Source: a virus. From it: 36,330 nt of DNA. The DNA lies in IMG/VR virus record IMGVR_UViG_3300045988_012637, positions 1 to 36,330 of that record; one strand, given 5' to 3'. Every line of letters begins with the position of its first letter. The first letter of the stretch is position 1. Below are positions 12,255 through 32,326 of the stretch, piece by piece. Under the pieces are notes generated by a model. It did no database searches. It was not told where the DNA came from and saw only the letters and a list, made by a program, of their open reading frames with translations. Made by a program: the position numbers and the translations under genes.

Positions 12255-12758
12255 ATGGAAAAAATTACAGATATAGGGCAGATCGTTTCATTGTGCCAAA
12301 CAATGACTAATCTAAAATTGGATATTGTGTGCGGGGCGGATCGTCTGTTTGCGCAACGCTGGTATGAAGAACGTTATTTAACCGGCCAGCACACGCGCTA
12401 CGTGATGAAGCCAGGACTATTCATCAACTCGATTGAAGACGGAAGAGTGTACCGCGCTTTCAACACAAGCGACGAGAAGGCCGTGGAGTTCATGGAAGCC
12501 GATGAAAATTACAAGGACTATTTCATAGACTTGCAGGCGGAAGCGGTTACAATTCCCGAAACAGGTGACGACCCGCTCGCACCGGAAGCCGCACCGGAAG
12601 CCGCACCGGAAGCCCCAGCAGAAGAACCGGAACTATCGGAGGAAGAGATCGCCGCGGCTAAACGCAGCGAAGCGGCTAAAAAGGCAGCGGCTACACGCGC
12701 AGCGAAAAAGGCAGCAGAAGCAGAAGCCGCCGAGGGCCTTAAGGAGTTCGAAGAATAA
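12255..12758 (+). CDS. hypothetical protein with a low-complexity Pro/Ala/Glu/Lys C-terminus
   Basis: ATG ORF whose C-terminus reads APEAAPEAAPEAPAEEPELSEEEIAAAKRSEAAKKAAATRAAKKAAEAEAA. Confidence 0.5.
   Translation: MEKITDIGQIVSLCQTMTNLKLDIVCGADRLFAQRWYEERYLTGQHTRYVMKPGLFINSIEDGRVYRAFNTSDEKAVEFMEADENYKDYFIDLQAEAVTIPETGDDPLAPEAAPEAAPEAPAEEPELSEEEIAAAKRSEAAKKAAATRAAKKAAEAEAAEGLKEFEE
12579..12614 (+). repeat. 3 x 12-bp perfect in-frame tandem repeat (GCACCGGAAGCC), encoding (APEA)3
   Basis: Read directly from the sequence. Confidence 0.9.
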
Positions 12759-12775: not shown

Positions 12776-13927
12776 ATGATCGCAGCAAAGAAAATAGAGT
12801 TAATAGTACGTAGGGCGCTGAATTTAGTGCCCCGTACTTCTGAAGGGGTGGTTAGTTACGATGTAGATAATCTATACCCGCAACGTATCGCAAATCTTAT
12901 CGACGCTAGTAAGACCGCTACGGCGTGTTGCGACAAGGCGAAAGAAAACATCATTTGCGAAGGGTTCGTTAACGAAGAATTTGCGGCGAGAACCAACGAG
13001 CACGGCCAGGACATGAACGATGTTTTAGAATTCGTAGCGGACGAGATACCGAGATACAGGGGTTACGCGTTAATAGTACAATACGGCGGCGATGGTCGCC
13101 CGTTGTACTGTTATCCCGTTCCGTTCGGTTACGTTCGTGCCGTTCTTAATGAGGACTACAAACGGGATTCTATCGTGCGGAAATGGCGTGTATTTGATAA
13201 CTGGGAGCGCGAGATGCTCAAGGACACGAACGTTAAAACGGGCGTAGTTTACCCTAACTTCAATCCGAAAAATTTTTGGAAGGAATGCGAAGAGTACGGA
13301 GGCATTGAAAACCATCCGGGACAACTCTATTACGCCAACTTCTCAAACCGTCGCCCTTATCCGATCAGCCCGTTTCACGCGGTACAGCCCGAAATGGGGG
13401 CGGAGCACGGGAACGCGTTGTATGTCGAAAACGTACTGGCACGCGGATTCCACGCTTGCAGCGTCGTATCACACGGAATGTTTCAAAGCGATCAGGAGCA
13501 AAACGAGTTCCGGGATGCCATTACCGAAATGATGGGCGTTGAAGGTACCGGCGCAGTTCTCACAGTACGAGACGAGAATGTAGGTATTACAGAGAAGCCC
13601 TTTATCAGAGTGGATCAAATCGGTACGCCGATTGATTCCGACCTGTATAAGTCGTATTGTGAGCCATTGCGAAAAGACATTGCGATTTCTTGCTTCACTA
13701 TTCCGATCCCGCTTATTGATTCATCGTTGATCAGCTTTTCGAACGCGTCCGGCGAAGTGGTTAAGGAAATGCAGCGCGTATACCGCCGTTCATTGTCGCG
13801 TGTCCGTGATAAAATTTCCCGAGACCTGGCCTATATATTCGACCTGGACCCGGAACTAACTAAAATTGAAAACGATTTGGAAGGCGACGCGGATATTGTA
13901 CCCGCCAACCAAGTAATAACAGATTAA
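12776..13927 (+). CDS. putative portal protein
   Basis: 383-aa ORF in the head module. No other ORF in the genome has portal size and character. The C-terminal region (IPIPLIDSSLISFSNASGEVVKEMQRVYRRSL) resembles portal tunnel/crown segments. Tentative. Confidence 0.4.
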   Translation: MIAAKKIELIVRRALNLVPRTSEGVVSYDVDNLYPQRIANLIDASKTATACCDKAKENIICEGFVNEEFAARTNEHGQDMNDVLEFVADEIPRYRGYALIVQYGGDGRPLYCYPVPFGYVRAVLNEDYKRDSIVRKWRVFDNWEREMLKDTNVKTGVVYPNFNPKNFWKECEEYGGIENHPGQLYYANFSNRRPYPISPFHAVQPEMGAEHGNALYVENVLARGFHACSVVSHGMFQSDQEQNEFRDAITEMMGVEGTGAVLTVRDENVGITEKPFIRVDQIGTPIDSDLYKSYCEPLRKDIAISCFTIPIPLIDSSLISFSNASGEVVKEMQRVYRRSLSRVRDKISRDLAYIFDLDPELTKIENDLEGDADIVPANQVITD

Positions 13928-15182: not shown

Positions 15183-15766
15183 AAATAACATTAAATAAGA
15201 TATTGGTGTGTTTAGCGGTCCTTCTAGCCATTTTATTGTACGCGTCGTATAAGACAGTACAAAAACAGAGAAGAGAGCTAGAAAGGCAGGAAAACAACAT
15301 CACTGCGCTTAACGCCGAGGCCGTAGCGTTCAAGACTACGGCGGGTGATTATGCGGAACAGGCTAGACAGTTAAGACTAGAGAAGGACGAGCTGGAACTA
15401 TATAACGCCGATCTATATAATAAGGTACGCGAGGCAGGAATAAAGATAAGGGAGCTTAAGAACGCGACGCGTGCCGAGACAGTTACCAAGGTGGACACTG
15501 TGGTTAAGACAGAATACCGGGACGGGAACAAAGAAAGCCGATTCGCCCACTACTTCGACGGATGGAATGATATACAAGTTGATTCTAAACCGGACACCAC
15601 AATTATAAAATCTAGCAGTACCGACACGATCGACGTGATCGGATCAGTCAGGCAAAAGCGGTTTTTATTCTTTCGGATCGGAAAACCGAAACAAACTATA
15701 ACCGTATCGAATAAAAACCCAAAATCTAAAATACACGTAGAATTCTCGGCAGAATTCGACAAATAA
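15179..15766 (+). CDS. spanin-like lysis accessory protein (N-terminal TM helix plus coiled coil)
   Basis: ILVCLAVLLAILLYA membrane anchor followed by a heptad-rich region (QRRELERQENNITALNAEA..LRLEKDELELYN). ATGA overlap with the endolysin gene. Confidence 0.45.
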   Translation: MKITLNKILVCLAVLLAILLYASYKTVQKQRRELERQENNITALNAEAVAFKTTAGDYAEQARQLRLEKDELELYNADLYNKVREAGIKIRELKNATRAETVTKVDTVVKTEYRDGNKESRFAHYFDGWNDIQVDSKPDTTIIKSSSTDTIDVIGSVRQKRFLFFRIGKPKQTITVSNKNPKSKIHVEFSAEFDK

Positions 15767-15816
15767 TGCCTTTCATCTTTCACAAACGTCCTTTCATCTT
15801 TTACACTTGAAAACTT

Positions 15817-15847
15817 AAAACGCTGATTCATAACGAGTTGGCGTTTT
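15817..15847 (+). terminator. possible terminator hairpin after the lysis genes (AAAACGC...GCGTTTT followed by T)
   Basis: 7-bp stem, 17-nt loop, T-rich 3' arm and tail. The tail overlaps the -33 TTTG of the next promoter. Confidence 0.35.
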
Positions 15848-15878
15848 TGCTTGTCAATTATTAAAATTTGTATCTTTG
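15846..15878 (+). promoter_or_regulatory. strong Bacteroidota-type promoter P-A1 (-33 TTTG, 21-nt spacer, -7 TATCTTTG)
   Basis: Matches the TTTG / TAnnTTTG consensus. 27 nt (ATTAAAATTTGTATCTTTGACACTTAA) are identical to 32003..32029. Confidence 0.7.
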
Positions 15879-16078
15879 ACACTTAATTCACTAATAACTA
15901 GTACTTTATCTATTGATATATATCATTTGTAAAAGATGGAAAGATGTTATATAGAGCTAAGAATGAAATAGTAATATAATCTATAATATATGTAAATATA
16001 TGAATTAATATGTGAATGAATTTATAGAAATATTTAAATATAAACTAATAGGGAAACTATGTTTCATCTTAGACATTT
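15860..16078 (+). other. copy A of a paralogous promoter / conserved leader / AT-rich core / 3' box element (candidate cis-regulatory RNA, sRNA or origin-like DNA element)
   Basis: Collinear with 32003..32232. The two share blocks at identical spacing and an A/T core of 109 vs 112 nt. No conserved ORF. Confidence 0.5.
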
Positions 16079-16093
16079 CACCCGTTTTTGCCA

Positions 16094-16122
16094 CTTAACT
16101 AGCTGATACGCAATTAGTTAAG
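16094..16122 (+). terminator. hairpin CTTAACTA-(13 nt, GCTGATACGCAAT)-TAGTTAAG, a member of a three-hairpin family
   Basis: 8-bp perfect stem with no U-tract. The loop shares TGATACGC with the hairpin at 24014..24043, and the stem shares TTAACTA with the hairpin at 31752..31803. Confidence 0.35.
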
Positions 16123-16226
16123 GGTGGAAAGACCCGCTTAAAAAGGGGTATTTGTCATTGACACTGTTACTAAACCTTCAAAACCGTTAAACAGAGTTAA
16201 ATTACTAAAGTTTTTTGGGAAATAGT

Positions 16227-16256
16227 TTTGTAGTCCAAAATAAAGCCGTATCTTTG
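16227..16256 (+). promoter_or_regulatory. promoter P-A2 (-33 TTTG, 18-nt spacer, -7 TATCTTTG) for the replication module
   Basis: Consensus boxes are present. The upstream block CTAAAGTTTTTTGGGAAA is repeated at 24058, and AAAATAAAGC before the -7 box is repeated at 18791. Confidence 0.6.
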
Positions 16257-16470
16257 TAACATCGAAAGAGAAATGAGAACCCCGCCAATCGTAACCAAAG
16301 GGGGCTAGAAGGGAAACACGGACGGTATCCCAATTCATTTGAAAAGACGGTGCGGTATCCGCTTAATTGAAGCTATAAAGCCAGAATCTCAATCGATAAA
16401 ACAACTGAAAAGCCTACTAAATTTGTTGAACTATTCCGAGATCGGAGAATCGTTTTAAACATTACTAGAT

Positions 16471-16803
16471 ATGGCAGCAATAGACATTTATAAGTTAGAA
16501 GCGTTCTTTTATAAGATTATACGGGAGAGGATTACAGCGTGCAAAACGATAGGCGAGGCTACAATGCTATACGGCTATCCGGGCAACTCGAAAATGGTGT
16601 TCGACGATTTGCAACGAGAAGAAGAAGAAGCCGGAAAAAAGTTTAAGTATAAAATCCGGGGCTTTATAATTCCACACGCCAAACGTTACGAAACCATTTT
16701 CGAACAGGCCCGGCGCGCCGCTTATTCCGATCACGTACAAACTTATCGAACGTCTGACAAATTGAGTTTTAAATTTAATGAAAAGATGAAATGGAAAAAG
16801 TAG
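16471..16803 (+). CDS. hypothetical protein (110 aa), first gene of the replication module
   Basis: ATG ORF; no motif recognised. Confidence 0.5.
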   Translation: MAAIDIYKLEAFFYKIIRERITACKTIGEATMLYGYPGNSKMVFDDLQREEEEAGKKFKYKIRGFIIPHAKRYETIFEQARRAAYSDHVQTYRTSDKLSFKFNEKMKWKK

Positions 16804-16970
16804 AACTTATCACAGTGGCGGAAGCCGCCCGGTTAGCGGAGTGCACCGAAAACGCAATACGCTACCAGCTCAACGCCGGAAAGCTCACACGGTACGAGAA
16901 CGGAACGGGCAAAATCAGAGTGAGCAAAAACGAACTATTAGAAACAATTTTTAATTTTAAGAAAAAATGA
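16791..16970 (+). CDS. small helix-turn-helix DNA-binding protein (excisionase/MerR-like HTH), 59 aa
   Basis: Hand translation gives MEKVELITVAEAARLAECTENAIRYQLNAGKLTRYENGTGKIRVSKNELLETIFNFKKK. The pattern [IV]T..EAA..L....ai.y....G.l is typical of HTH_17-type domains. It overlaps both neighbours, with ATGA at its 3' end. It is below the ORF-track length cutoff. Confidence 0.6.
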   Translation: MEKVELITVAEAARLAECTENAIRYQLNAGKLTRYENGTGKIRVSKNELLETIFNFKKK

Positions 16971-17581
16971 AAGTAGTAATCGAATTAATCGGAAATGAGA
17001 GTAAAGAATCTTTGTTAGCAACATCTAACTATTTACGTGAATTGGCAGGGGGCGTTTTGCCTGTACCAACGGAAGCCAAAGTTCATGACCCGAACTATGA
17101 GGCAAAGCCTCTGAACGTTGAAGCAGCAAAAACCGACCTCGATAAGTTGGCGGACGCGGTTGTAGAGGCAACAAAGGTGAAGGACGAAGAGAAGCCTAAA
17201 ACAGTTTCCGAGATGGTGGAATCTGAACGCGCCAAGACACGCGCTAGGCGTGCCGTGAAGCCTGCAGAGGTTGAAGAGCCTGCAGAGGTTGAAGAGCCTG
17301 CACCGGTTGAAGAGCCTGCACCGGAAAAAGTGAAAGAAGAAGCTCCCGCACCAGTGGAAGAACCTGCAAAGGTAGAAGAACCTGCAAAGGTAGAAGAACC
17401 CGAAACGGATGCAGCATCTTATACTATTGATGATTGCAAGACTTATGCGATGAAGGCACTAAACGCGAAGAAACGCCCGATTGTACAAGAAGCTTTTGAA
17501 AGCGTAGGCGCTTCCAGTTTCCCGACGTTGAAGGAGGAAATGTTTAACGATTTTGTTGCATACATTTCAAGCCGTCTATAA
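16967..17581 (+). CDS. hypothetical protein with a central acidic Pro/Glu/Val repeat linker
   Basis: ATG ORF joined to neighbours by ATGA and TAATG. Central PAEVEEPAEVEEPAPVEEPAP...EEPAKVEEPAKVEEP. Confidence 0.5.
   Translation: MKVVIELIGNESKESLLATSNYLRELAGGVLPVPTEAKVHDPNYEAKPLNVEAAKTDLDKLADAVVEATKVKDEEKPKTVSEMVESERAKTRARRAVKPAEVEEPAEVEEPAPVEEPAPEKVKEEAPAPVEEPAKVEEPAKVEEPETDAASYTIDDCKTYAMKALNAKKRPIVQEAFESVGASSFPTLKEEMFNDFVAYISSRL
17261..17400 (+). repeat. in-frame tandem repeats: ~3.5 x 18 bp (CCTGCAGAGGTTGAAGAG family), then 2 x 18 bp (GAAGAACCTGCAAAGGTA)
   Basis: Read directly from the sequence. Confidence 0.85.
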
Positions 17582-18744
17582 TGGGACACGCAGAAAGAGA
17601 TCACGCGATTCTATCGCCGAGTAGCGCGAAACGATGGATTCATTGCACGCCATCGGCGCTACTAGCAGAAGCCGCCGGAAGCAAGTCAAGCGTTTACGCC
17701 GAGGAAGGCACACTAGCCCACGAAATGGCCGAACACGCTTTGACTAGATACCTGGAAGGCACATATGATCCAATCATAGATGGTGCCCTGACAATCAAGG
17801 ATGAACATTTCCGAAACCCGCTGTTTAGTATTGACATGGCGAATTACATTCGCGACTATTGCAATTACGTTATCGGTGAAAATTACGAAATGCAGAAGGC
17901 GGACGGCAAATGTAGAATGTATTTAGAGCGTCGAGTAGACATTACCGATTATGCGCCAGATTCTTTCGGATCGGTAGACGTAACACTAGTATCTGACAAG
18001 ACAATACACATTATAGATCTGAAGTACGGCGCAGGTGTTAAGGTAACCGCCGATCACAACGAACAAATGATGTTGTATGCTTTGGGAACTTTGAAGGCGG
18101 CAGCGTCGAAGGACATAACAAAAATCCGAATGACGATCGCACAAGTCAGATTAGACCACTACGACACGTTTGAAATGTCAAAGGGTGAGTTACTCGACTG
18201 GGCGGAGAAAGTCCTGAAACCAGCCGCAAAAGCGGCAATACAGGGCAAAGGGAAACAAGTTATTGGAAGCTGGTGCGGATTTTGTCCGGTTAAGGCCCAA
18301 TGCAGGGCGCAACGTGACGCAATACTTGCAGACTTCGACGAAAAGCCCGAGCCTCTTCTATTGTCTGACGAAGAAGTAACCGACCTAATCGGTAAGATCG
18401 ACACGTATAAGAGCTGGATCGAATCAGTTAATAAGTACGTTTACGATAGAGCGATACAGGGGCATAAATGGGAGGGCTACAAGCTCGTTGCGGGTAGAAC
18501 TAGTCGAGTTATCAAGGACGAGGCGAAGATACGTCAAGCGCTCTTAAATGAGTTCCTAGAGGACGAAGTACTAAACATCAAGTTAAAAGGTATCGGAGAT
18601 CTCGAAAAGTTGGTAGGCAAAAAAGTATTTAGTGCGAGGTTTGGAGATGCGATCGAATCAAGACCCGGAGCGCCTAAACTAGTGCCGGAATCCGCTAAGG
18701 GCGTGGAATATAGCCCGCTCTGCGACTTCGACATCGAAGGCTAA
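17581..18744 (+). CDS. PD-(D/E)XK nuclease, DUF2800/Cas4-like (phage recombination exonuclease)
   Basis: N-terminus HA.LSPSSAKRW.HC.PS is characteristic of DUF2800. IIDLKYGAG matches the D-x-K nuclease motif. C-terminal cysteines WCGFCPVKAQC resemble the Cas4 cluster. Confidence 0.75.
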   Translation: MGHAERDHAILSPSSAKRWIHCTPSALLAEAAGSKSSVYAEEGTLAHEMAEHALTRYLEGTYDPIIDGALTIKDEHFRNPLFSIDMANYIRDYCNYVIGENYEMQKADGKCRMYLERRVDITDYAPDSFGSVDVTLVSDKTIHIIDLKYGAGVKVTADHNEQMMLYALGTLKAAASKDITKIRMTIAQVRLDHYDTFEMSKGELLDWAEKVLKPAAKAAIQGKGKQVIGSWCGFCPVKAQCRAQRDAILADFDEKPEPLLLSDEEVTDLIGKIDTYKSWIESVNKYVYDRAIQGHKWEGYKLVAGRTSRVIKDEAKIRQALLNEFLEDEVLNIKLKGIGDLEKLVGKKVFSARFGDAIESRPGAPKLVPESAKGVEYSPLCDFDIEG

Positions 18745-18780
18745 CAGAAGTTAAAAAACAATTAAAGAATGTATAAACGG

Positions 18781-18810
18781 TTTGAAGTTTAAAATAAAGC
18801 GATATCTTTG
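18781..18810 (+). promoter_or_regulatory. promoter (-33 TTTG, 18-nt spacer, -7 TATCTTTG) upstream of the SSB gene
   Basis: Consensus boxes lie in the 106-nt intergenic gap. AAAATAAAGCGATATCTTTG parallels AAAATAAAGCCGTATCTTTG at 16237. Confidence 0.6.
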
Positions 18811-18850
18811 AACCGTGTTAGAAAAATAACAAATTAAAATCTTAAAAATT

Positions 18851-19432
18851 ATGAGTAGAAAATTGATCTTAAAAAACGTGCGTTTCTCTTATGTAAGAGT
18901 TTTCGAGGCAGAACAATTCAACGGAGTAGGTGACTTCCATTACAGTGTTGTTCTTCTGATCCCAAAAACTGACGTCGCCCTGGTTAAGCAAATCAACGAT
19001 GCGGTAAAGGCGGAAGCACAGGACTATTTTTCAAGGGACCCCAAATTCAAGGGACGTGTACCGGAAAATTACAAAAGCCCGTTAAAGGATGGCGACGCGC
19101 CAGAAAAAGAAGGGCAAGCCGGATTTGAAGGTATGTACTACATCACAGCGAAAAGGAAAGAGGAACACGGGCAACCGATCGTAATTGACAAAGGTAAACG
19201 CCCTATCACAGCGAAAGAGGATATGTATTCCGGATGTTGGGGAGTAGCTTCCATTTCAATCTACGGTTACAACATGAGCGCCGACAACCGCGGTATAACC
19301 TCCGGATTGAATGGAATTCAGAAGGTAACTGATGACGATAGACTGGACGGCGGATCAAGCGTCAACGACTTCGAAGATTTGAGTGATGAAAACGATGACC
19401 CGTTTGGAATGAACGAAAAATTACCATTTTAA
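18851..19432 (+). CDS. DUF2815-type single-stranded DNA-binding protein
   Basis: N-terminus LKNVRFSYVRVFE and an acidic C-terminal tail (DFEDLSDENDDPF). The canonical position is between the DUF2800 nuclease and DNA polymerase A. Confidence 0.65.
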   Translation: MSRKLILKNVRFSYVRVFEAEQFNGVGDFHYSVVLLIPKTDVALVKQINDAVKAEAQDYFSRDPKFKGRVPENYKSPLKDGDAPEKEGQAGFEGMYYITAKRKEEHGQPIVIDKGKRPITAKEDMYSGCWGVASISIYGYNMSADNRGITSGLNGIQKVTDDDRLDGGSSVNDFEDLSDENDDPFGMNEKLPF

Positions 19433-19499
19433 ATTAATCAGTGAATTTTTAAATATAATTATTAATCAATCTCGTTAAAACAAGTGTAAAATGATTCTC

Positions 19500-19533
19500 A
19501 AAAGCCGTGCCGAGTAGAAGCGGCGCGGCTTTT
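19500..19533 (+). terminator. rho-independent terminator (13-bp stem including one G-U pair, 8-nt loop, T-run)
   Basis: AAAAGCCGTGCCG-AGTAGAAG-CGGCGCGGCTTTT followed by AACTTT. It lies in the gap between the SSB and polymerase genes. Confidence 0.7.
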
Positions 19534-19557
19534 AACTTTAAAAACCCCTAAAAAGAC

Positions 19558-21558
19558 ATGAAACCAATTTATATAGATTTTGAAACTTATTCAAGCGAGG
19601 ACATTAAGAGCGGCGGCGCGTACAGATATACGCAATCGCCCGACTTTGAGATACTCCTTATTGGATACGCAGTCGGCGCAGGACCCGTTCATATTGTTGA
19701 TATGACGGGCGTAGATGCCTACGAGCGGTTTACGGACTTCGTGACCTTGATACTAGACGAGCAATATACGATCGTAGCGCACAACGCGCAGTTTGAACGG
19801 TTGTGTTTGATGGCATACGGTATCAACATTCCCGCGGAACGTTTCCTATGTACCGCGACTATGGCGTTATACGCCGGATTCCCTGAAAGTTTGGGAAATC
19901 TTTCTAAAGCCCTCGATCTGAAAGAGGGCAAAAAGGGCACAGGGCTAGCCCTTATAAAATTCTTCTGCCAACCACAGAAGCCGACTAAGGCGGACCCGGA
20001 AGGGTACCGGAACGATCCGAGAGATTATCCGGAAAAATGGGAAGAGTTTATAGACTACCTACGTTATGATATTCTTTCAGAACGTGAAGCGCAGGCACGC
20101 CTAGACTATTGCAAGTTCCCGCAGTCGGAGATAGACCTGTACCGGCTGGATCAAGACATTAACGACAACGGCATAGCCGTGGATATGGAACTAGCCGAAC
20201 GCGCGGACGCTCTGAACGAGGAATTTTGCAACGAATTGAAAAACCGTATTAAAACTAAGTACGGTATATCCTCTCTTAAGTCTACAATGCAACTAAAGGA
20301 CTTTGTAATGATCCAAACCGGAAAGTCTTTCGATTCGTTCCGGAAAGAGGACATAGAGCAGATTATGCAGGAGTGCGACAACGAACGAGTAGACGAAGTA
20401 CTAAACGCCCGGAAGATCATAAACAAGACTAGTAACGCCAAATATACAGCGATGCGCAACTGTGTGTGCTTCGATGGACGTGTACACGGCTTATATAGAT
20501 TTTATGGCGCGGGCCGTACTGGCAGATGGGCGGGTAGACTAGTCCAGATGCAGAATTTGCCGCGTAACTACATACACGACCTTGACGGCGCGCGTGATAA
20601 TGTTAAACACATGTGTTTGGCAGACTTCGAAACGTTTTGGGGGAATGTACCTGACACGTTATCGCAGCTTATCAGAACAACGTTTGTAGCTCCAAAGGGA
20701 ACTATATTCCATATCGCCGACTATTCAGCCATTGAAGCCCGTGTACTGGCGTGCCTGTGTCGCGAGGAATGGCGTATTGAAGCGTTCCGCAACGGGAAAG
20801 ATATTTATGTAGTGTCTGCAAGTATGACATTTAGTTTGCCCGAAAATCAATGCGGCAAAGGTACTCATTACCGCCAACAAGGTAAAGTGACCGAGCTAGC
20901 CCTAGGTTATGGCGGTTGGGTAGGTGCTATGTCTACGATGGACTACGAGAACGCAATTGACCCGGCATTATACAAGGATATTATATTGAGATGGCGTGCC
21001 GCCTCTCCACGAATAGTTGAGTTTTGGGAGGAGCTGGATAGCCGTGCAAAACTCTGTATCAGGAACAAGAAAGACGTGGAGGTTATCCGGTACGGTGTAC
21101 ACGTTTGTACATTTCAATGGTTTAAAGAAAACAATTCTCTAGCAATTTTATTACCTTCGGGCCGTCGTTTGTTTTATCCGTTTTGCCGGATTGCTACGAA
21201 AAGCGTGCATGGACGAGATCGAGAGGTTATAACATACAAGGGTCAGGACTTAACCGGAAAATGGGCGGACCTTGACACGTATGGCGGAAAGCTAACCGAA
21301 AATATAACGCAGGCAGTCAGCCGTGACTTATTGGCATACGGCATGCAAGAGATTGTAAAACGTTACCCGGCTGTTAAAATTGTGGGGCATATCCATGATG
21401 AGACGGTAAACGAAACGCCCTTAGATGATTTTGGCGAGCCAACCGTGTCACTTAAAGAGATTTGCGAAGCTATGGCAGCCACGCCAAAATGGGCGGACGC
21501 TTTCGGGATTCCGTTGAAGGCCGAAGGGTTCACTAGTAATTATTATAAGAAAGATTAA
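19558..21558 (+). CDS. family A DNA polymerase with 3'-5' exonuclease domain
   Basis: Exo motifs: IDFETYS, HNAQFE, YLRYDIL. Polymerase motif A is IADYSAIEARVLA, motif B is RQQGKVTELALGYGG and motif C is GHIHDE. Confidence 0.9.
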   Translation: MKPIYIDFETYSSEDIKSGGAYRYTQSPDFEILLIGYAVGAGPVHIVDMTGVDAYERFTDFVTLILDEQYTIVAHNAQFERLCLMAYGINIPAERFLCTATMALYAGFPESLGNLSKALDLKEGKKGTGLALIKFFCQPQKPTKADPEGYRNDPRDYPEKWEEFIDYLRYDILSEREAQARLDYCKFPQSEIDLYRLDQDINDNGIAVDMELAERADALNEEFCNELKNRIKTKYGISSLKSTMQLKDFVMIQTGKSFDSFRKEDIEQIMQECDNERVDEVLNARKIINKTSNAKYTAMRNCVCFDGRVHGLYRFYGAGRTGRWAGRLVQMQNLPRNYIHDLDGARDNVKHMCLADFETFWGNVPDTLSQLIRTTFVAPKGTIFHIADYSAIEARVLACLCREEWRIEAFRNGKDIYVVSASMTFSLPENQCGKGTHYRQQGKVTELALGYGGWVGAMSTMDYENAIDPALYKDIILRWRAASPRIVEFWEELDSRAKLCIRNKKDVEVIRYGVHVCTFQWFKENNSLAILLPSGRRLFYPFCRIATKSVHGRDREVITYKGQDLTGKWADLDTYGGKLTENITQAVSRDLLAYGMQEIVKRYPAVKIVGHIHDETVNETPLDDFGEPTVSLKEICEAMAATPKWADAFGIPLKAEGFTSNYYKKD

Positions 21559-21563
21559 TTAAC

Positions 21564-23954
21564 ATGGAAAAATACACTTTATCACTTGCGGGTTCTTCGG
21601 CTTCATTGAAGTGGAAGTCCGTACGTATGACCTGGGAAGCATTTTTGGAAAGACTAGGAACGCCAGTTATCACTAACGAAACGGTACGCGAGTTCGATAG
21701 ACTGGACAAGCCCGCTAAATCGTCTTTGAAGGACGTAGGCGGATTCATGGCTGGCGAGTTGTCTGGCGCTCAACGCCTTAAGAAGGCCGTTATGTCCCGT
21801 TCGATGATTACATTAGACGTAGATTTTGGGGACGATCTTTTCCCGTTCGATTTTGCGGATCGTTTTCCAGGTGTGGCGGCAGCTATTTATACCACTAGAT
21901 CAGACCGTCCCGGATCGCGCCGTTACCGTCTTATCATGCCGTTTAAAGAAGAAGTTACAGACGTTACTATGTACGAAGCCGCGGCGCGTAAAGTAGCCGA
22001 GTTGTTAGGTATCGATTTATTCGACAAAACAACGTTTCAGCCGGAACGTATGATGTACTGGCAATCTCTTTCCAAAGATCAAACCGGACTATTCGAAGTG
22101 TTCGAAGGCGAACCGATCAGCGCGGAGTATCTCGTAGGTTTGTACGGAGACAATGAAGAATGGCGCGACGTGCGCAAATGGGCATTCCATTCAGAGGTAG
22201 AACGTGATACCCGCGCCGTTATTAGTAAGGAGATGGCGAAAGACCCCCGCGATAAAGAAGGTTTGGTAGGCGCGTTTTGCCGCTCGTACACCATCCCCGA
22301 AGCCATAGAGAAATACTTGTCAGACGTTTACACGGAGGTAGACAACGGACGGTACACCTACGCACTTGGATCGGGCGCGGCTGGCCTAGTTGTGTACGAC
22401 GATGTACTGTGTTTTTCCCACCACTCAACCGACCCTATTGGAGACGGACACGCTTATAACGCTTATGATTTGGTACGTGTGCACAAGTTCGGACACCTAG
22501 GCAAGGAAGACAGTACCCGCGAGATGAACAAGCTAATTTGCGCGGATAAAGAGTGCGTTAAGGATATGGTAGCCGTGGACGATGATCTAGCTGACTTTGA
22601 AGAATACACGGACGATGTTAAGAGCGACGCGCAGACCGCCGCCGAGCTTGTTTGGGACTTAGATCGCAAAGGTGATAAATTGTGTACCGTTCGCAACTTC
22701 GTTAACGCTTTCAAGTGTGATCCGCTATTAAATGATCTATTAGCTTACGACTTGTTTCTCGATACGATCGTGTACACCCGTACGCCGTTCTTCTCGAAGG
22801 ACATAAAGAAGGGTGATATGTTGGACGACACAGCTGTAGCAATTATCCGTGGACGCATTGAGGATTTGCACGGTATTTATAATGACAGCAAATTAAACGA
22901 CGCGCTGGAAAAGGTTTGCAGCGAAAACGCTTTCCATCCTATCAAGAAGTACCTGGAGGCACTAAGATGGGACGGCGTGAAACGGATAGATAATTTCCTG
23001 GTCGATTACATGGGGGCAGAGCCTAACATCTACGTGTCCGAGGCGTTCCGCAAAATGCTGGTTGCCGCCGTTACTAGAGTGTACGAGCCGGGCCGCAAAT
23101 TTGATACGGCGCTTGTTATGTATTCAGGGCAGGGCGCGGGAAAGTCCACGCTTATACAGTCCCTTTCAAAAGGTTGGTTTAACGATTCGCTAACGGACGT
23201 GTCCGGGCAAAAAGCATATGAAGCGATACAACACGCCTGGATCGTGGAGCTAGCCGAGTTGTCGGCCCTTCGCCGTTCGGACGTGGAGGCTACTAAGAAC
23301 TTCATAAGCAAGCGCGAAGATACATATCGTAGTGCATACGCCCGCCGCGTCAAGACACACCGTAGACAATGCGTATTTTTCGGGTCTACTAACGACGATG
23401 AGTTTTTGAAGGACAAAACCGGAAACCGCCGTTTCTTTCCGATCGAGGTACGTGCCAACAAGAACACGCACAAGCTGTTTGAGAAGTCATTTGATAAAGT
23501 AGTAGACCAACTTTGGGCGGAAGCAATGGAGCTGTACATGTTGGGCGAAAGCCTTATCTTATCGGACGAAGCGGAAGCGATCGCTAACGAGGGACGCGAG
23601 GAATTTACAGAAGAAAGCCCACTAGTAGGTATTATAGAAAACTATGTAGATAAACTTTTCCCGGCTGACTACGAAGAGCGCACCGAACAGCAACGCGCCG
23701 ACTTCCTAGCCGGATCACTGGAAGAGATTGGGACGGTTCAAAAAAATACATTCTGTTTAATGGAGCTATGGGTAGACGCTTTGGGGCGCAAGAAAGAAGA
23801 TTATACAAGCGCGAAAGGGCGAGAACTGGCAACAGCTATGAGACAGATAGGCGGATGGTACAAGGGAAAGTTAAATAGAACTAAATTGTACGGCCGACAA
23901 GTAATTTATATCCGTAAAGGTAGCAAGGAAAGCCAAAAATTACTATCTTTGTGA
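21564..23954 (+). CDS. primase-helicase: N-terminal AEP/prim-pol-like domain fused to a VirE/D5-type P-loop NTPase
   Basis: ITLDVDFGD matches the AEP DxD motif. Walker A is YSGQGAGKSTL and Walker B is WIVELAEL. Size and position are typical of the DUF2800-PolA module. Confidence 0.8.
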   Translation: MEKYTLSLAGSSASLKWKSVRMTWEAFLERLGTPVITNETVREFDRLDKPAKSSLKDVGGFMAGELSGAQRLKKAVMSRSMITLDVDFGDDLFPFDFADRFPGVAAAIYTTRSDRPGSRRYRLIMPFKEEVTDVTMYEAAARKVAELLGIDLFDKTTFQPERMMYWQSLSKDQTGLFEVFEGEPISAEYLVGLYGDNEEWRDVRKWAFHSEVERDTRAVISKEMAKDPRDKEGLVGAFCRSYTIPEAIEKYLSDVYTEVDNGRYTYALGSGAAGLVVYDDVLCFSHHSTDPIGDGHAYNAYDLVRVHKFGHLGKEDSTREMNKLICADKECVKDMVAVDDDLADFEEYTDDVKSDAQTAAELVWDLDRKGDKLCTVRNFVNAFKCDPLLNDLLAYDLFLDTIVYTRTPFFSKDIKKGDMLDDTAVAIIRGRIEDLHGIYNDSKLNDALEKVCSENAFHPIKKYLEALRWDGVKRIDNFLVDYMGAEPNIYVSEAFRKMLVAAVTRVYEPGRKFDTALVMYSGQGAGKSTLIQSLSKGWFNDSLTDVSGQKAYEAIQHAWIVELAELSALRRSDVEATKNFISKREDTYRSAYARRVKTHRRQCVFFGSTNDDEFLKDKTGNRRFFPIEVRANKNTHKLFEKSFDKVVDQLWAEAMELYMLGESLILSDEAEAIANEGREEFTEESPLVGIIENYVDKLFPADYEERTEQQRADFLAGSLEEIGTVQKNTFCLMELWVDALGRKKEDYTSAKGRELATAMRQIGGWYKGKLNRTKLYGRQVIYIRKGSKESQKLLSL

Positions 23955-24013
23955 TACAAAACTTTCTTTTCTAATTTTTAAGGTTAATACTTTTAGGGTG
24001 GTTTTTCAGTTAA

Positions 24014-24050
24014 AAAGTCTTTCGTAGTGATACGCGAGACTTTATTTTTG
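24014..24050 (+). terminator. terminator-like hairpin AAAGTCT-(16 nt)-AGACTTT followed by ATTTTTG
   Basis: 7-bp stem with a T-run 1 nt downstream. The loop contains TGATACGC, shared with the 16094 hairpin. It follows the primase gene. Confidence 0.5.
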
Positions 24051-24079
24051 TTAATATACTAAAGTTTTTTGGGAAAAGT

Positions 24080-24110
24080 TTTGGTACTTCATAATTAAGT
24101 CGTATCTTTG
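24080..24110 (+). promoter_or_regulatory. promoter (-33 TTTG, 19-nt spacer, -7 TATCTTTG) with a conserved leader
   Basis: Consensus boxes are present. GTATCTTTGAAATGTCAAAAGGAAATAA plus CAATTAAAAATTA is duplicated at 25692. Confidence 0.7.
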
Positions 24111-24149
24111 AAATGTCAAAAGGAAATAAACCAATTAAAAATTAAAGAT

Positions 24150-24290
24150 ATGAAAAAGTATTATGTAAATGGAAAAGAGATCACAGAACAAGAAGCCATT
24201 GAAATTAAAACTAAAAACGCAGAATTGCAAAAGAGTACAGACCTCAATGACTGGTTAGGTATTCAATGGATAACGGAGATAAAAAAGTAA
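24150..24290 (+). CDS. small hypothetical protein (46 aa)
   Basis: The ORF-track entry 24108..24290 begins at a TTG inside the promoter -7 box. The first ATG is at 24150 (MKKYYVNGKEITEQE...). Confidence 0.45.
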   Translation: MKKYYVNGKEITEQEAIEIKTKNAELQKSTDLNDWLGIQWITEIKK

Positions 24291-24297
24291 ATAACCC

Positions 24298-24315
24298 GGC
24301 GGGGTAACACCCGCC
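24298..24315 (+). terminator. GC-rich hairpin GGCGGG-GTAACA-CCCGCC (no T-run)
   Basis: 6-bp perfect GC stem 8 nt after the stop at 24290. It is followed by an A-rich rather than T-rich tract. Confidence 0.3.
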
Positions 24316-24331
24316 ATAACACTAAAAAAAT

Positions 24332-24418
24332 ATGAAACAATTTGTAGTTTACACGTTTTGGGCGATCCTGTTTGTATTATTCATCTTATTGTGCTGCGAG
24401 CCAACAACTAGCGTATGA
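24332..24418 (+). CDS. possible small hydrophobic peptide (28 aa)
   Basis: Hand translation gives MKQFVVYTFWAILFVLFILLCCEPTTSV. ATGA overlap with the next ORF. Confidence 0.35.
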   Translation: MKQFVVYTFWAILFVLFILLCCEPTTSV

Positions 24419-24609
24419 TACAAATACTAAGGGCGGTGATTATAACGACGGACGGCGTTATAGTACAGGACTATGCAGAAGTCCAAGATAGTTTAGGTGT
24501 GTATGTCTGTTACGACATAGAAGCGGAACGGCGGTATATCGCCGAGTGTCAGACCCGAATGGGATTTACGGTTAAGCGGGTTAATCTAACTTATGTAACG
24601 AAGGAATGA
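24415..24609 (+). CDS. hypothetical protein (64 aa)
   Basis: ATG ORF coupled to its neighbours. Confidence 0.45.
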   Translation: MIQILRAVIITTDGVIVQDYAEVQDSLGVYVCYDIEAERRYIAECQTRMGFTVKRVNLTYVTKE

Positions 24610-25073
24610 TGTATATTATATTAGCGGCGGTACTTATCGTGATCGCCGCATATTATCCAATTAAACTTATAAAATTTTATTGTATGGAAAGTAAAGAACA
24701 AGGCTTGGAAGCCAAAATTACACGGGACTTAAGAGAAGGGAGAGTTTCTACTAACCTTGTTTTGCTGACAATTGGCGCGGGTGGTTTGCGTCTCACGCGT
24801 AACCATCTGGACGCTATTTTCGAATGGATGGTTCAGAATACGAACGCGTGGAGAGTGCACACGTACGCAGACGAAAAGATAGTGGTGGTGTTTTCGCATT
24901 CGCCATTCCACCCGGAAGAGTGGGACAATTGCGAGGACTACAAACACGTTATGCACCGAATGTTCGGCGATTTCGGAACAAAGGATTTTTTCACGTCCCG
25001 CGCCACTGTGGAAGAATCTGACCGTATTAGGGAAAACCTAGAAATTTTATTAAAAGAATATAGCAATGAGTAA
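24606..25073 (+). CDS. hypothetical membrane-anchored protein (155 aa)
   Basis: N-terminal hydrophobic helix MMYIILAAVLIVIAAYYPI followed by a soluble domain. Confidence 0.5.
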   Translation: MMYIILAAVLIVIAAYYPIKLIKFYCMESKEQGLEAKITRDLREGRVSTNLVLLTIGAGGLRLTRNHLDAIFEWMVQNTNAWRVHTYADEKIVVVFSHSPFHPEEWDNCEDYKHVMHRMFGDFGTKDFFTSRATVEESDRIRENLEILLKEYSNE

Positions 25074-25624: not shown

Positions 25625-25669
25625 CTAAGAGCATTTAATGCAAATCAAAGTTAAGAGTTTACCCTATAT

Positions 25670-25700
25670 TTTGGTAGTATGAAAAGAACCCGTATCTTTG
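25670..25700 (+). promoter_or_regulatory. promoter (-33 TTTG, 19-nt spacer, -7 TATCTTTG) with the same leader as 24103
   Basis: Consensus boxes and a duplicated leader sequence. Confidence 0.7.
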
Positions 25701-25739
25701 AAATGTCAAAAGGAAATAATCAATTAAAAATTAGAAATC

Positions 25740-26177: not shown

Positions 26178-26181
26178 GATC

Positions 26182-26592: not shown

Positions 26593-26594
26593 TT

Positions 26595-30632: not shown

Positions 30633-30638
30633 TAAGGT

Positions 30639-30818: not shown

Positions 30819-30821
30819 ATT

Positions 30822-31856: not shown

Positions 31857-31989
31857 ATGCTTGATTTTAACGGTATTTTAACTAAAAAGCCTGTTTTTGA
31901 CAAAAAAGTGGTGAAAACGTCTTTGACAACTCGATTTCATGTTTGACACCCGACCAGCTCCACAGGACGCAGAACGCGCTTTTCAAGTT

Positions 31990-32021
31990 TTTGATGTGAA
32001 AGATTAAAATTTGTATCTTTG
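31990..32021 (+). promoter_or_regulatory. strong Bacteroidota-type promoter P-C1 (-33 TTTG, 20-nt spacer, -7 TATCTTTG)
   Basis: Consensus boxes; 27 nt identical to P-A1. Confidence 0.7.
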
Positions 32022-32232
32022 ACACTTAACTTGCTTATTTATAGTACTTTATCATATAATATATACTATATGTCAAAGATGGAAAGATATATACTAGTGG
32101 ATTACATTATAAAAAGTAATAATATAGTTAACATAAATATACTATTGTATAAAAAGGATAATAAAATTATGGAAAATATTTAAAATATATCTATAGGGAA
32201 AACGTCTTTTTATCTTTCCATCGTTGACACTT
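32003..32232 (+). other. copy C of the paralogous promoter / conserved leader / AT-rich core / 3' box element
   Basis: Collinear with 15860..16078. GTCAAAGATGGAAAGATA (32072-32089) and TATCTTTCCATCGTTGAC (32211-32228) form a 17/18 inverted repeat that encloses the A/T core. Confidence 0.5.
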
Positions 32233-32318
32233 GGGCTGAAATGCCCTGTTCATCGGGGTTTGGGGGTGGAATGATGTTTTTGGTAGGTGGAAAGATGGCA
32301 ATTTGGGCGGAAAAAGAG

Positions 32319-32326
32319 TAATTTTG
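32319..32326 (+). promoter_or_regulatory. possible -7 box TAATTTTG just upstream of terS
   Basis: Fits TAnnTTTG, 22 nt before the ATG at 32349. No -33 at canonical spacing. Confidence 0.3.

What the first reader, a model, noticed from the sequence alone, without database searches (positions are those of the whole stretch)
15767..16130. Copy A of a duplicated element (strong promoter, conserved leader, A/T core, 3' box) in a 704-nt ORF-free gap at the lysis/replication boundary
No credible ORF lies between the stop at 15766 and the ATG at 16471. A near-consensus Bacteroidota promoter sits here (TTTG 15846-15849, 21-nt spacer, TATCTTTG 15871-15878). From 15860 the sequence is collinear with 32003 onward. 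The two share 27 identical nt (ATTAAAATTTGTATCTTTGACACTTAA). After a 12-nt variable spacer both have TAGTACTTTATC, and after an 18-nt variable spacer both have GT[A/C]AAAGATGGAAAGAT. Next comes an almost pure A/T core of nearly equal length (109 nt here, 112 nt in copy C). Both then have GAAA(A)TATTTAAA(A)TATA..CTA(A)TAGGGAAA(A)C and a 17-18-nt box (TTTCATCTTAGACATTT here, TTTCCATCGTTGACACTT in copy C). The short ORFs opening at the shared ATGGAAAGA are MERCYIELRMK here and 34 aa in copy C. They diverge after about 5 codons, while nucleotide blocks outside them are conserved. The constraint therefore looks non-coding. Each copy sits at the head of a long unidirectional gene block. I see three hypotheses. 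(i) It is a cis-acting leader RNA that modifies RNA polymerase, in the way putL/putR do in phage HK022. (ii) It is a ~200-nt phage sRNA. (iii) It is a DNA-level element, such as an unwinding region flanked by protein-binding boxes that acts as an origin. I know of no described element of this architecture.
Basis: partly seen in the sequence, partly recalled or inferred. Interest (0 to 1): 0.8.

Follow-up and report, generated by a model that had tools for sequence, protein, structure and literature searches.

The report
Twin iteron-type phage replication origins
The duplicated non-coding element is most likely one of two replication-origin-like DNA sites (short protein-binding repeats around an easily melted A/T core) read by the phage's own primase-helicase, not an RNA gene; this is a familiar kind of element, newly located in a family of gut Bacteroides phages.

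Summary
Copy A (about 15772-16165) and copy C (about 31893-32297) are collinear, and each lies in a gap between the two gene blocks of a complete ~36.3-kb Bacteroides siphophage genome.

The leader-RNA and sRNA readings are not supported. The "promoter" -7 box is kept as TAnnTTTG in only 4/29 and 5/25 relatives. There is no Rfam hit, and no RNA covariation beyond one base.

Each copy is an array of at least 8 short boxes (ATCTTTGACA / ATCTTTCCA) in both orientations. The boxes flank the two least stable 110-nt stretches of the genome (14.5% GC).

The same layout, in two copies, recurs in B. caccae and B. uniformis phages, but with different boxes. Within clades the box allele switches together at all boxes of both copies. 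It tracks one residue (R778 versus A/V/Q/S) in the C-terminal winged-helix domain of the phage primase-helicase. That protein is a homologue of SaPI Rep, an initiator that binds iterons flanking an AT-rich centre.

Best reading: a pair of iteron/unwinding-element origins, comparable to SaPI ori and to SPP1 oriL/oriR. This is a new member of a known kind. Binding and origin firing are inferred, not shown.

The parts
15772..15808 (+). Copy A, two tandem direct boxes a1 and a2 (TTTCATCTTTCACAA / TTTCATCTTTTACACTT)
   Evidence: Their number varies from 1 to 3 among relatives.
15860..15886 (+). Copy A, the 27-nt block shared with copy C. It contains box a3 (15870-15884), which in this genome also reads as a Bacteroides -7 box (TATCTTTG, 15871-15878; the -33 TTTG is at 15846-15849).
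   Evidence: The -7 consensus is kept in only 4/29 relatives.
15899..15910 (+). Conserved block TAGTACTTTATC (function unknown)
15929..15945 (-). Copy A, inverted box pair a4/a5. GTAAAAGATGGAAAGAT is the reverse complement of ATCTTTCCATCTTTTAC.
   Evidence: The allele switches with the other boxes.
15940..16049 (.). Copy A, A/T core and putative DNA unwinding element (14.5% GC). Its sequence is highly conserved in close relatives.
   Evidence: nearest-neighbour dG is -108 against a genome mean of -152 +/- 9.9.
16027..16057 (+). Conserved right-edge block GAAATATTTAAATATAAACTAATAGGGAAAC. Its (C)TATAGG(G)AA core is kept across clades whose boxes differ.
16062..16078 (+). Copy A, direct box a6 to the right of the core (TTTCATCTTAGACATTT)
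16094..16122 (+). Hairpin / motif CTTAACTAGCTGA...TAGTTAAG that follows the box. The motif CTTAACTnGCTGA recurs after boxes in other clades.
   Evidence: 0 mismatches here; 1 mismatch at 32025; 2 at 15814
16124..16165 (.). Copy A, distal boxes a7 (GGTGGAAAGACC, - strand) and a8 (TTTGTCATTGACAC, + strand)
16227..16256 (+). Canonical Bacteroides promoter (TTTG-N18-TATCTTTG) of the replication gene block. It lies downstream of the element and is not part of it.
   Evidence: (family D3). TAnnTTTG is kept in 29/29 relatives.
31893..31951 (+). Copy C, upstream direct boxes (GTTTTTGACAAA; CGTCTTTGACAAC; TTTCATGTTTGACACCC)
   Evidence: Alleles c1 and c2 track residue 778.
31995..32029 (.). Copy C, inverted box c0 (TGTGAAAGAT) plus the 27-nt shared block with box c3. 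Together they form the palindrome TGTGAAAGAT-TAAAATTTGT-ATCTTTGACA.
32072..32088 (-). Copy C, inverted box pair c4/c5 (GTCAAAGATGGAAAGAT)
32086..32195 (.). Copy C, A/T core and putative DNA unwinding element (14.5% GC)
   Evidence: this is the least stable 110-nt window of the genome.
32210..32232 (+). Copy C, direct box pair c6/c7 to the right of the core (TTATCTTTCCATCGTTGACACTT)
32264..32297 (-). Copy C, distal inverted boxes c8 (GGGTGGAATGATG) and c9 (GGTGGAAAGATGG)
32319..32326 (+). Conserved -7 box TAATTTTG, 23 nt before the terS ATG. It is the likely promoter of the packaging/structural block and lies downstream of the element.
   Evidence: TAnnTTTG is kept in 25/25 relatives.
21564..23954 (+). 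Primase-helicase (796 aa), the proposed initiator. It has an N-terminal primase region, a VapE/D5-like SF3 helicase domain (residues 464-682), and a C-terminal winged-helix domain (about 679-796).
23895..23897 (+). Codon of R778 in the wing of the C-terminal winged helix. This residue co-varies with the box allele.

Best explanation
Copy A, and its twin copy C, is a double-stranded-DNA element of the iteron-origin type. Each copy has at least eight copies of a roughly 9-10-bp box (ATCTTTGACA / ATCTTTCCA) in both orientations. The boxes surround a ~110-bp A/T core that is the easiest DNA in the genome to melt.

The boxes are recognised by the C-terminal winged-helix domain of the phage's own primase-helicase (21564-23954), a homologue of the self-loading Rep initiators of staphylococcal pathogenicity islands.

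Proposed mechanism:
1. Rep-like hexamers assemble on the box arrays on either side of the core.
2. They melt the core and load themselves.
3. The fused primase domain primes.
4. The phage PolA, SSB and exonuclease module extends.

The element exists twice per genome, once at each boundary between the two gene blocks: after the lysis genes and before terS. The two copies would be either two origins, or one origin plus a second Rep-bound site. The second site could be a cis enhancer like P4 crr, or a fork barrier like SPP1 oriR.

What is shown:
- the architecture;
- its conservation in two copies across clades;
- the coupled switching of box alleles at both loci together with wing residues of the winged-helix domain;
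- the homology of the protein.

What is inferred: physical binding, melting, origin firing, and the division of labour between the two copies.
For: **Architecture**
- Boxes occur on both strands around the core, at about 18 per kb in both elements against 0.25 per kb elsewhere.
- The cores are the two least stable 110-nt windows of the genome, more than 4 SD below the mean.

**Family-wide conservation with changing boxes**
- The close clade has TCTTTGACA or TCTTTTACA.
- Other clades have CTATTACA, CTGTGACAC, GGATAGAT, CGGAACAC, GCACAG / ACACAG / GACCAG, and TGGAACA / GTGACAA.
- The layout stays the same throughout.
- B. caccae phage BC679P1 and B. uniformis phage BU183P1 also carry two copies at the same two positions.

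**Coupled alleles**
- In the 24 genomes where both copies could be typed, the box alleles of A and C agree although they are 16 kb apart.
- All boxes switch together, including those upstream of the putative transcription start.

**Link to the protein**
- A column-by-column scan of the 42 window proteins gave residue 778 of the primase-helicase as the best hit. It is R in 8/9 G-type genomes and A/V/Q in 15/15 T-type genomes. No other protein typed in at least 20 genomes exceeded 0.86 accuracy, and neighbouring genes show no signal.
- Ten further non-duplicate genomes all fit: 3 with R and G-type boxes, 7 without R and T-type boxes. By my arithmetic, Fisher gives 0.008 for this set and about 4e-8 for all genomes combined.
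- BK687P6 has S778 and a third box allele.
- In the B. uniformis clade the hexapeptide at the wing tip partitions perfectly with three box types in 31 genomes, and BU183P1 also fits.
- In far relatives the same YG-x-Q position differs (R / Q / K) along with the box.

**Protein identity**
- Pfam VapE-like domain, E = 1e-76.
- SaPI1 Rep1 (PDB 7pds), E = 7e-74.
- A profile of the C-terminal domains hits the Rep1 C-terminal domain at E = 3e-7.
- The AF2 model of the C-terminal domain has pLDDT 90 and a winged-helix fold. R778 sits at the start of the second wing strand.
- Foldseek's top six hits are all 7pds chains, with TM 0.70.

**Literature**
- The SaPI Rep C-terminal winged helix binds 5-6-nt iterons. 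There are 6-12 per ori, with an AT-rich centre and iterons pointing in opposite directions (PMC9371898).
- SPP1 has two similarly built origins bound by one protein (PMC6316719).
Against: - There is no experimental binding, melting or replication data.
- GC skew is monotonic and uninformative.
- The protein-box link rests on covariation. One G-type genome carries A778, and its element is a G/T hybrid.
- Phylogenetic non-independence inflates the Fisher values.
- Structural (tail) proteins could not be scanned for association, because the loci did not cover them.
- Unlike SaPI ori, the elements are not adjacent to the rep gene. They lie 5.4 kb upstream and 8 kb downstream of it.
- Several strongly conserved non-box blocks have no role in the simple iteron/unwinding-element model: TAGTACTTTATC, the copy-A core sequence, TATAGGGAA and CTTAACTnGCTGA.
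- In this particular genome box a3/c3 does form a consensus promoter, so transcription into the core cannot be excluded.
Confidence: 0.7

Rival explanations
1. The arrays are operators, not origins. The primase-helicase C-terminal domain, or another phage protein, binds the box arrays to switch or insulate transcription of the two gene blocks. For example, it could repress the box-embedded promoter, or autoregulate as Rep does on the inverted repeats of iteron plasmids. Replication would start elsewhere.
For: - Each copy sits exactly between a terminator-ended block and the promoter of the next block.
- Box a3/c3 overlaps a consensus -7 in this genome.
- The palindrome around the 27-nt block looks like an operator.
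Against: - The layout of a ~110-bp, 14.5% GC core flanked by opposed boxes is the origin layout of the homologous SaPI Rep system.
- No other iteron cluster exists in the genome to serve as the origin, including next to the rep gene.
- The box-embedded promoter is not conserved.
Confidence: 0.13
2. RNA element. A transcript starting about 7 nt after 15878 (and after 32021) forms a cis-acting leader that modifies RNA polymerase (put-like), or a ~200-nt sRNA.
For: - A consensus TTTG-N21-TATCTTTG is present in both copies of this genome.
- The copy C RNA folds better than shuffles (z = -3.4), through pairing of the inverted boxes with the 3' boxes.
Against: - The -7 box is kept in only 4/29 and 5/25 relatives, and is absent in the B. 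caccae and B. uniformis clades.
- Copy A folds with z = -1.8.
- RNAalifold gives -4.1 kcal/mol with one covarying pair, which is the box allele.
- The same allele changes in boxes upstream of the start site, in both orientations, and tracks a DNA-binding domain residue.
- Rfam finds nothing.
Confidence: 0.05
3. Packaging signal. The boxes are terS recognition sites (pac), with copy C next to terS and copy A a second or decoy site.
For: - Copy C lies directly upstream of terS in every clade.
- The terS N-terminal region diverges fast between clades.
Against: - Within the close clade, genomes with opposite box alleles share the same first 75 terS residues.
- No terS column associates with the box allele; the best is 0.80.
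- Copy A is 16 kb from terS.
Confidence: 0.04

Closest known systems
SaPI replication origin with its Rep / PriRep initiator (Staphylococcus aureus pathogenicity islands; PMC9371898, PDB 7pds)
   Same: - The initiator is homologous: the SF3 VapE-like helicase matches at E = 7e-74, and the C-terminal winged-helix domain matches by profile (E = 3e-7) and by fold (TM 0.70).
- The primase is fused, as in SaPI5 PriRep5.
- The origin layout is the same: 6-12 short iterons, an AT-rich centre, and iterons on both sides in opposite orientation.
- Specificity resides in the C-terminal domain and differs between elements.
   Different: - Here the element is not immediately downstream of rep.
- It exists in two copies 16 kb apart, at the block boundaries.
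- It is about 400 bp long, with boxes of about 9-10 bp and several conserved non-iteron blocks.
- The host is a lytic-type Bacteroides siphophage with its own PolA module, not a satellite.
- Nothing has been tested biochemically.
Bacillus phage SPP1 oriL / oriR (PMC6316719)
   Same: - There are two similarly organised loci (repeats plus an AT-rich unwinding element), many kb apart on a genome transcribed from one strand.
- Both are bound by a single phage origin-binding protein.
- One locus lies in an intergenic gap bracketed by transcription signals in the late region.
- SPP1 oriR is proposed to stall forks and trigger the theta-to-sigma switch, which is a possible model for one of the two copies here.
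   Different: - The SPP1 initiator gp38 is unrelated. It works with a separate loader (gp39) and a DnaB-type helicase (gp40).
- SPP1 oriL lies inside gene 38.
Satellite phage P4 ori and crr with the alpha protein (own knowledge: Ziegelin et al. 1993/1995; Yeo et al. 2002)
   Same: - One polypeptide carries a primase, an SF3 helicase and a C-terminal winged-helix origin-binding domain.
- Two separate cis loci carry the same iterons, and both are bound by that protein.
   Different: - No sequence or fold match to the P4 alpha origin-binding domain was recovered.
- P4 crr is a pair of 120-bp repeats, not a copy of ori.
- This comparison rests on memory and was not tested here.
HK022 putL/putR
   Same: Two related cis elements sit at the heads of two operons.
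   Different: - put sites act as structured nascent RNA.
- Here the promoter is not conserved and no RNA structure is supported.
- The repeats occur in both orientations and co-vary with a DNA-binding domain.

Membership tests
SaPI-type Rep / iteron origin | The initiator is a self-loading SF3 (VapE/D5-like) helicase. | tested here: met
   Pfam PF05272 at E = 1.3e-76 over residues 464-682. PDB 7pds_A (SaPI1 Rep1) at E = 6.8e-74 over residues 386-711.
SaPI-type Rep / iteron origin | The initiator has a C-terminal domain with a winged helix that reads the iterons. | tested here: met
   - A profile of the C-terminal domains hits 7pds residues 338-461 at E = 3.2e-7.
- The AF2 model has pLDDT 90.2 with H-H-H-beta-hairpin topology.
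- Foldseek's top six hits are 7pds chains, TM 0.70.
- DNA contact itself is inferred from covariation.
SaPI-type Rep / iteron origin | 6-12 short repeats (iterons) per origin. | tested here: met
   At least 8 boxes in each copy. Other clades have 5-10.
SaPI-type Rep / iteron origin | An AT-rich region near the centre, with at least 2 iterons on each side pointing in opposite directions. | tested here: met
   - The cores 15940-16049 and 32086-32195 are 14.5% GC and are the least stable DNA in the genome.
- An inverted box pair lies to the left of each core.
- Direct boxes lie to the right: one in copy A (a6), a pair in copy C.
SaPI-type Rep / iteron origin | Iteron sequence and C-terminal domain specificity are matched and differ between elements. 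| tested here: met
   - R778 goes with G-type boxes, A/V/Q with T-type boxes, and S with a third allele.
- The hexapeptide at the wing tip matches ACACAG / GCACAG / GACCAG.
- This is correlation only.
SaPI-type Rep / iteron origin | The ori lies immediately downstream of the rep ORF. | tested here: not met
   Rep ends at 23954. The arrays are at 15772-16165 and 31893-32297, and there is no box cluster near 23954.
SaPI-type Rep / iteron origin | Rep binds and melts the ori, and the ori supports replication. | not testable with these tools
   This needs EMSA or footprinting, permanganate probing, marker-frequency analysis, or ori-plasmid assays.
SPP1-type dual origins | Two distant loci share the same repeat plus unwinding-element organisation. 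| tested here: met
SPP1-type dual origins | The origin-binding protein is of the gp38 family, with a separate loader and a DnaB-type helicase. | tested here: not met
   The initiator here is a fused primase and SF3 helicase. No DnaB-type helicase was found among the annotated genes.
put-type antitermination RNA / phage sRNA | A conserved promoter or transcript, plus an RNA structure supported by covariation. | tested here: not met

The most novel reading that the evidence does not exclude
The two Rep-bound arrays may not be redundant origins but a functionally split pair conserved across the whole phage family. One would fire. The other, always abutting terS, would act as a Rep-bound fork trap or pairing partner. 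It would switch replication from theta to concatemer mode and couple that switch to packaging.

In addition, the clade-invariant motifs at the edge of the core (TATAGG(G)AA, CTTAACTnGCTGA) may mark a defined priming or loading site. That site would be read by the conserved, non-specificity part of the primase-helicase. In G-type phages the box-embedded promoter may add transcriptional activation.
Probability: 0.2. Interest if true: 0.65.

Novelty: new member of a known kind. Interest (0 to 1): 0.45.

Why it matters
- Replication origins and initiators of gut Bacteroides phages are unannotated. GenBank records leave these gaps empty or fill them with doubtful short ORFs, and a full-text search found no paper linking Bacteroides phages and iterons.
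- This work places a pair of candidate origins and their cognate initiator in a large family of B. ovatus, B. caccae and B. uniformis siphophages.
- It also gives a concrete and cheap test of protein-DNA recognition: R778 with a G in the box, and A/V/Q with a T. That test could be used to study origin specificity, phage incompatibility or recombination between co-infecting phages, or to build phage-derived replicons for Bacteroides.
- The mechanism class itself is already known.

Tried and rejected
- **GC and AT skew.** Cumulative GC skew rises monotonically because all genes are on one strand, so it gives no origin or terminus signal.
- **sigma-70 promoter and terminator scan.** The results are at chance level and do not apply to Bacteroides.
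- **Rfam.** Gathering and E-value scans found nothing. The one hit was a plant snoRNA at E = 0.39.
- **tRNA/tmRNA.** None found.
- **RNA folding and RNAalifold.** See the RNA rival explanation.
- **terS, the 59-aa HTH_17 protein, the 110-aa and 204-aa proteins and all other covered genes as the box reader.** No associated column was found.
- **First AF2 run with a 7-sequence alignment.** pLDDT was 48 and the model was unusable. A 33-sequence alignment replaced it.
- **Conserved translated peptide across the core.** The only ORFs are 28-29 aa. The cores of A and C differ in length and sequence, and relatives carry indels.
- **Second copy in the B. uniformis clade, searched by its conserved core 15-mer.** The motif occurs once per contig because the right halves of the two copies differ. 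The second copy was then found in BU183P1.
- **Within-genome homogenisation of A and C in the close clade.** Identity is 0.836 within genomes against 0.830 between genomes, which is not significant on 7 genomes. Concerted evolution is therefore claimed only at the clade level and for the box allele.
- **Validation set.** Five of the metagenome 'validation' contigs turned out to duplicate discovery contigs and were removed from the test.
Full report
**Context.** The window is a complete phage genome. Bases 1-55 repeat at 36276-36330, an assembly overlap, and all genes are on the + strand. It is 84-93% identical to cultured Bacteroides ovatus, koreensis and kribbi siphophages such as BO1, BKO1-1, BKR1 and the BK687P, BK735P, BK745P and BO668P series.

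The genome has two gene blocks:
- terS (32349), terL, structural genes, and holin plus a DUF6549 protein, ending at 15766.
- A replication block from 16471 to 31745: DUF2800 exonuclease, Enc34-type SSB, PolA, a 796-aa primase-helicase, an SNF2-like helicase and methyltransferases.

Copy A fills the gap after the first block. Copy C fills the gap before terS.

**Observation.** The two copies align at 79% over 101 nt without gaps and remain collinear over about 400 nt. The gap has no credible ORF. The A/T cores are the two most AT-rich and least stable 110-nt windows of the genome: 14.5% GC, nearest-neighbour dG -108 against -152 +/- 9.9, with the next window at -121.

**One repeated box.** They are one motif. 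TCATCTTTGACACTT occurs 8 times at up to 3 mismatches against 0.74 expected, and 7 of the 8 lie in the two copies. GTMAAAGATGGAAAGAT is an inverted pair of the same box. With a looser, admittedly element-derived pattern, each copy holds 8 boxes on both strands, which is about 18 per kb against 0.25 per kb elsewhere. The layout of each copy is:
- direct boxes;
- a box within a 27-nt quasi-palindrome;
- an inverted pair;
- the A/T core;
- direct box or boxes;
- distal boxes.

**Relatives.** I fetched the two gaps from IMG/VR, metagenome and GenBank relatives.

The variants are TATCTTTT, TATCTTTC, TATCTATT and CATCTTCC. The canonical promoters just downstream are intact in 29/29 (16249-16256) and 25/25 (32319-32326). 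B. caccae phage BC679P1 and B. uniformis phage BU183P1 have the element but no promoter consensus at that place.

*Two copies.* Both of those phages also carry two copies, at the same two genome positions. Their copies resemble each other far more than they resemble the window's copies.

*Boxes change, architecture stays.* The clades carry:
- TCTTTGACA or TCTTTTACA (close clade);
- CTATTACA;
- CTGTGACAC;
- GGATAGAT;
- CGGAACAC;
- GCACAG, ACACAG or GACCAG (B. uniformis clade);
- TGGAACA or GTGACAA (far relatives).

Boxes in both orientations that are replaced together at every site point to recognition of double-stranded DNA by a co-evolving protein. They do not point to an RNA.

**Which protein.** Within the close clade the boxes come in a G type (TCTTTGACA, TGGAAAGA) and a T type (TCTTTTACA, TGTAAAGA). 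The alleles of copy A and copy C agree in the 24 genomes where both could be typed, although the copies are 16 kb apart.

I scanned every column of the 42 window proteins for association with the allele. The best column by far was residue 778 of the primase-helicase:
- R in 8 of 9 G-type genomes;
- A, V or Q in 15 of 15 T-type genomes.

No protein typed in at least 20 genomes exceeded 0.86 accuracy. PolA and the small genes flanking the primase-helicase show no signal, and the first 75 terS residues are the same in genomes with opposite box alleles. Nearly identical C-terminal backgrounds differ only at residue 778, for example L093 (R) against L107 (V), and L102 (R) against L091 (A).

Further support:
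- After removing five duplicates, ten further genomes all fit. Four are cultured phages: BK687P3 has A with T-type boxes, and BK687P2, BC422P2 and BO668P1 have R with G-type boxes.
- By my arithmetic Fisher's exact test gives 0.008 for this set and about 4e-8 overall. These values are uncorrected for relatedness.
- BK687P6 has S778 and a third box allele.
- The single exception, contig 035735, has a hybrid G/T element.
- Box-by-box, boxes c1 and c2 lie upstream of the putative transcription start, and they switch together with c4, c5, c7, c8 and c9.
- In the B. uniformis clade the hexapeptide following GW.R partitions perfectly with three box types in 31 distinct genomes: AANGKT and relatives with GCACAG, SADAKS / SAEAKA / AAEARP with ACACAG, and AAGRRA with GACCAG. 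BU183P1 also fits.
- In far relatives the position equivalent to 778 is R, Q or K, with boxes TGGAACA, GTGACAA or GGAACAA respectively.

**What the protein is.**
- Residues 464-682 are a VapE-like SF3 helicase domain, E = 1e-76.
- The best solved relative is SaPI1 Rep1 (7pds), E = 7e-74.
- The N-terminal third matches phage primase families.
- A profile of 12 diverse C-terminal domains hits the C-terminal domain of Rep1, residues 338-461, at E = 3e-7. The phage YG-x-Q aligns to Rep1 IGKQ.
- With a 33-sequence alignment, AlphaFold2 gives a confident winged helix: pLDDT 90.2, helices at 54-61 and 71-84, and a beta-hairpin at 87-95 / 99-106.
- R778 is model residue 100, the first residue of the second wing strand. 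The variable hexapeptide of the B. uniformis clade maps to the tip of the first wing strand.
- Foldseek's six best PDB hits are all 7pds chains (E = 2e-5, TM 0.70). Everything else is a weak generic winged-helix match.

According to PMC9371898:
- SaPI Reps are self-loading helicases whose C-terminal winged helix recognises 5-6-nt iterons.
- There are 6-12 iterons per ori, with an AT-rich region at the centre.
- At least two iterons sit on each side, pointing in opposite directions.
- In SaPI5 the primase and Rep are fused.

That is the architecture seen here.

**Interpretation.** Copy A and copy C are iteron-plus-unwinding-element arrays read by the phage Rep-like primase-helicase, so they are most likely replication origins. 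SPP1 gives a precedent for two such loci on one phage genome. Its oriL and oriR are about 13 kb apart, share the same organisation, and are both bound by gp38. oriR is proposed to stall forks and trigger the theta-to-sigma switch (PMC6316719). P4 ori/crr is a further precedent, from my own knowledge.

Whether both copies fire, or whether one is an enhancer or a barrier, cannot be decided here. GC skew is uninformative.

The promoter-like reading of box a3/c3 holds in this genome but is not conserved. If the promoter is active, it would transcribe into the core and would be occluded by bound Rep. That is an inference.

**RNA hypotheses.**
- Rfam finds nothing.
- The copy A RNA folds no better than shuffles (z = -1.8).
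- Copy C gives z = -3.4, only because the inverted boxes pair with the 3' boxes.
- RNAalifold on 25 copy-C sequences gives -4.1 kcal/mol with a single covarying pair. That pair is the variable base of the box.

**Unexplained residue.** Several non-box blocks are more conserved than the boxes and have no assigned role:
- TAGTACTTTATC.
- The copy-A core sequence.
- The motif (C)TATAGG(G)AA at the right edge of the core, which persists in clades whose boxes are completely different.
- CTTAACTnGCTGA after boxes.

These may be sites for the conserved part of the replication machinery or for a host factor.

**Novelty.** A full-text search found no paper that links Bacteroides phages with iterons, and none that names these phages. 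The GenBank records leave the gaps unannotated or place doubtful ORFs in them. The kind of element is known, so this is a new member in a new phage family. The conserved two-copy arrangement and a readable specificity code are its distinctive points.

Noticed in passing
window 1-55 and 36276-36330: There is an exact 55-nt direct repeat at the two ends of the window. It is an assembly overlap of a circular or circularly permuted genome, so the unique length is 36275 bp.
   Followed up: partly
window 16196-16268, 18781-18810, 24050-24159, 25669-25749: A second, canonical promoter family (TTTG-N18-19-TATCTTTG) has a shared upstream stretch (GTTAA.TTACTAAAGTTTTTTGGGAAA) and, for two members, a shared leader. 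These promoters head sub-operons of the replication block. They keep TAnnTTTG in all relatives, unlike the box-embedded 'promoter'.
   Followed up: partly
window 16262-16400: A ~75-140-nt segment of the leader of gene 16471 is present in some close relatives and cleanly absent in others. It contains the direct repeat ACGG(A/T)GCGGTATCC. The B. uniformis clade has analogous variable leader inserts, tandemly duplicated in L086. The RNA fold is no better than shuffles (z = +0.57) and there is no Rfam hit. BKO1-1 annotates a 61-aa hypothetical CDS there.
   Followed up: partly
window 17259-17404 (inside ORF 16967-17581): An 18-nt tandem repeat encodes PAEVEE-like repeats. Many metagenome contigs and several GenBank records of relatives start or end here, so those record ends are assembly breaks and not physical termini.
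   Followed up: no
window 16040-16057 and 32189-32203; L120 ~12985-13005; L154 ~15495-15512; L167/L168 ~12665-12680; L347 15868-15885: The motif (C)TATAGG(G)AA sits at the right edge of the A/T core, just before the right-hand boxes. It is kept across clades whose boxes are entirely different; the B. uniformis clade has CCACTATAGAGCGAG. It is possibly a priming or loading site. It superficially resembles the initiation region of T7/SP6-type promoters, but no single-subunit RNA polymerase gene is present.
   Followed up: partly
window 16094-16106, 32025-32037, 15814-15826: The motif CTTAACTnGCTGA follows boxes in both copies and recurs after boxes in other clades (TAACTCGCTGA, TAACTTGCTG, TAACTCACTGA). 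The overall count at 3 mismatches is not above chance, but the 0- and 1-mismatch hits are both inside the elements.
   Followed up: partly
window 31742-31800 (and L008-L032 upstream of copy C): A long hairpin follows the last gene of the replication block. It occurs in two alternative sequence versions among relatives (TTAACTAAAAGTCG...CGACTTTTAGTTAA against GGGGTTAA...TTAACCCC plus a T-run). It is probably the terminator that isolates copy C from upstream transcription. The B. uniformis clade has clear intrinsic terminators before both copies.
   Followed up: no
window 32349-33038 (terS) compared with L120, L129, L154, L159: terS diverges much faster between clades than terL or the helicases: 35-48% against 57-83% identity. 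Its N-terminal 40-80 residues are unalignable. Within the close clade it does not track the box allele.
   Followed up: partly
L171 (OP172647, BC679P1) 1057-1359; L002 (BKO1-1) 3774-3959: GenBank annotations place short hypothetical CDSs inside gap A or its leader, one of them on the opposite strand. These are probably spurious calls over the non-coding element.
   Followed up: no
L210 (OP172686, BK687P6) 32760-33170 and 12900-13300: A third specificity allele in a cultured phage: S778 (with QIIYY instead of QV(I/V)YI), and boxes TCTTTC(G/T)CA / GATATAAAGAT. It would make a natural third partner for specificity-swap experiments.
   Followed up: partly
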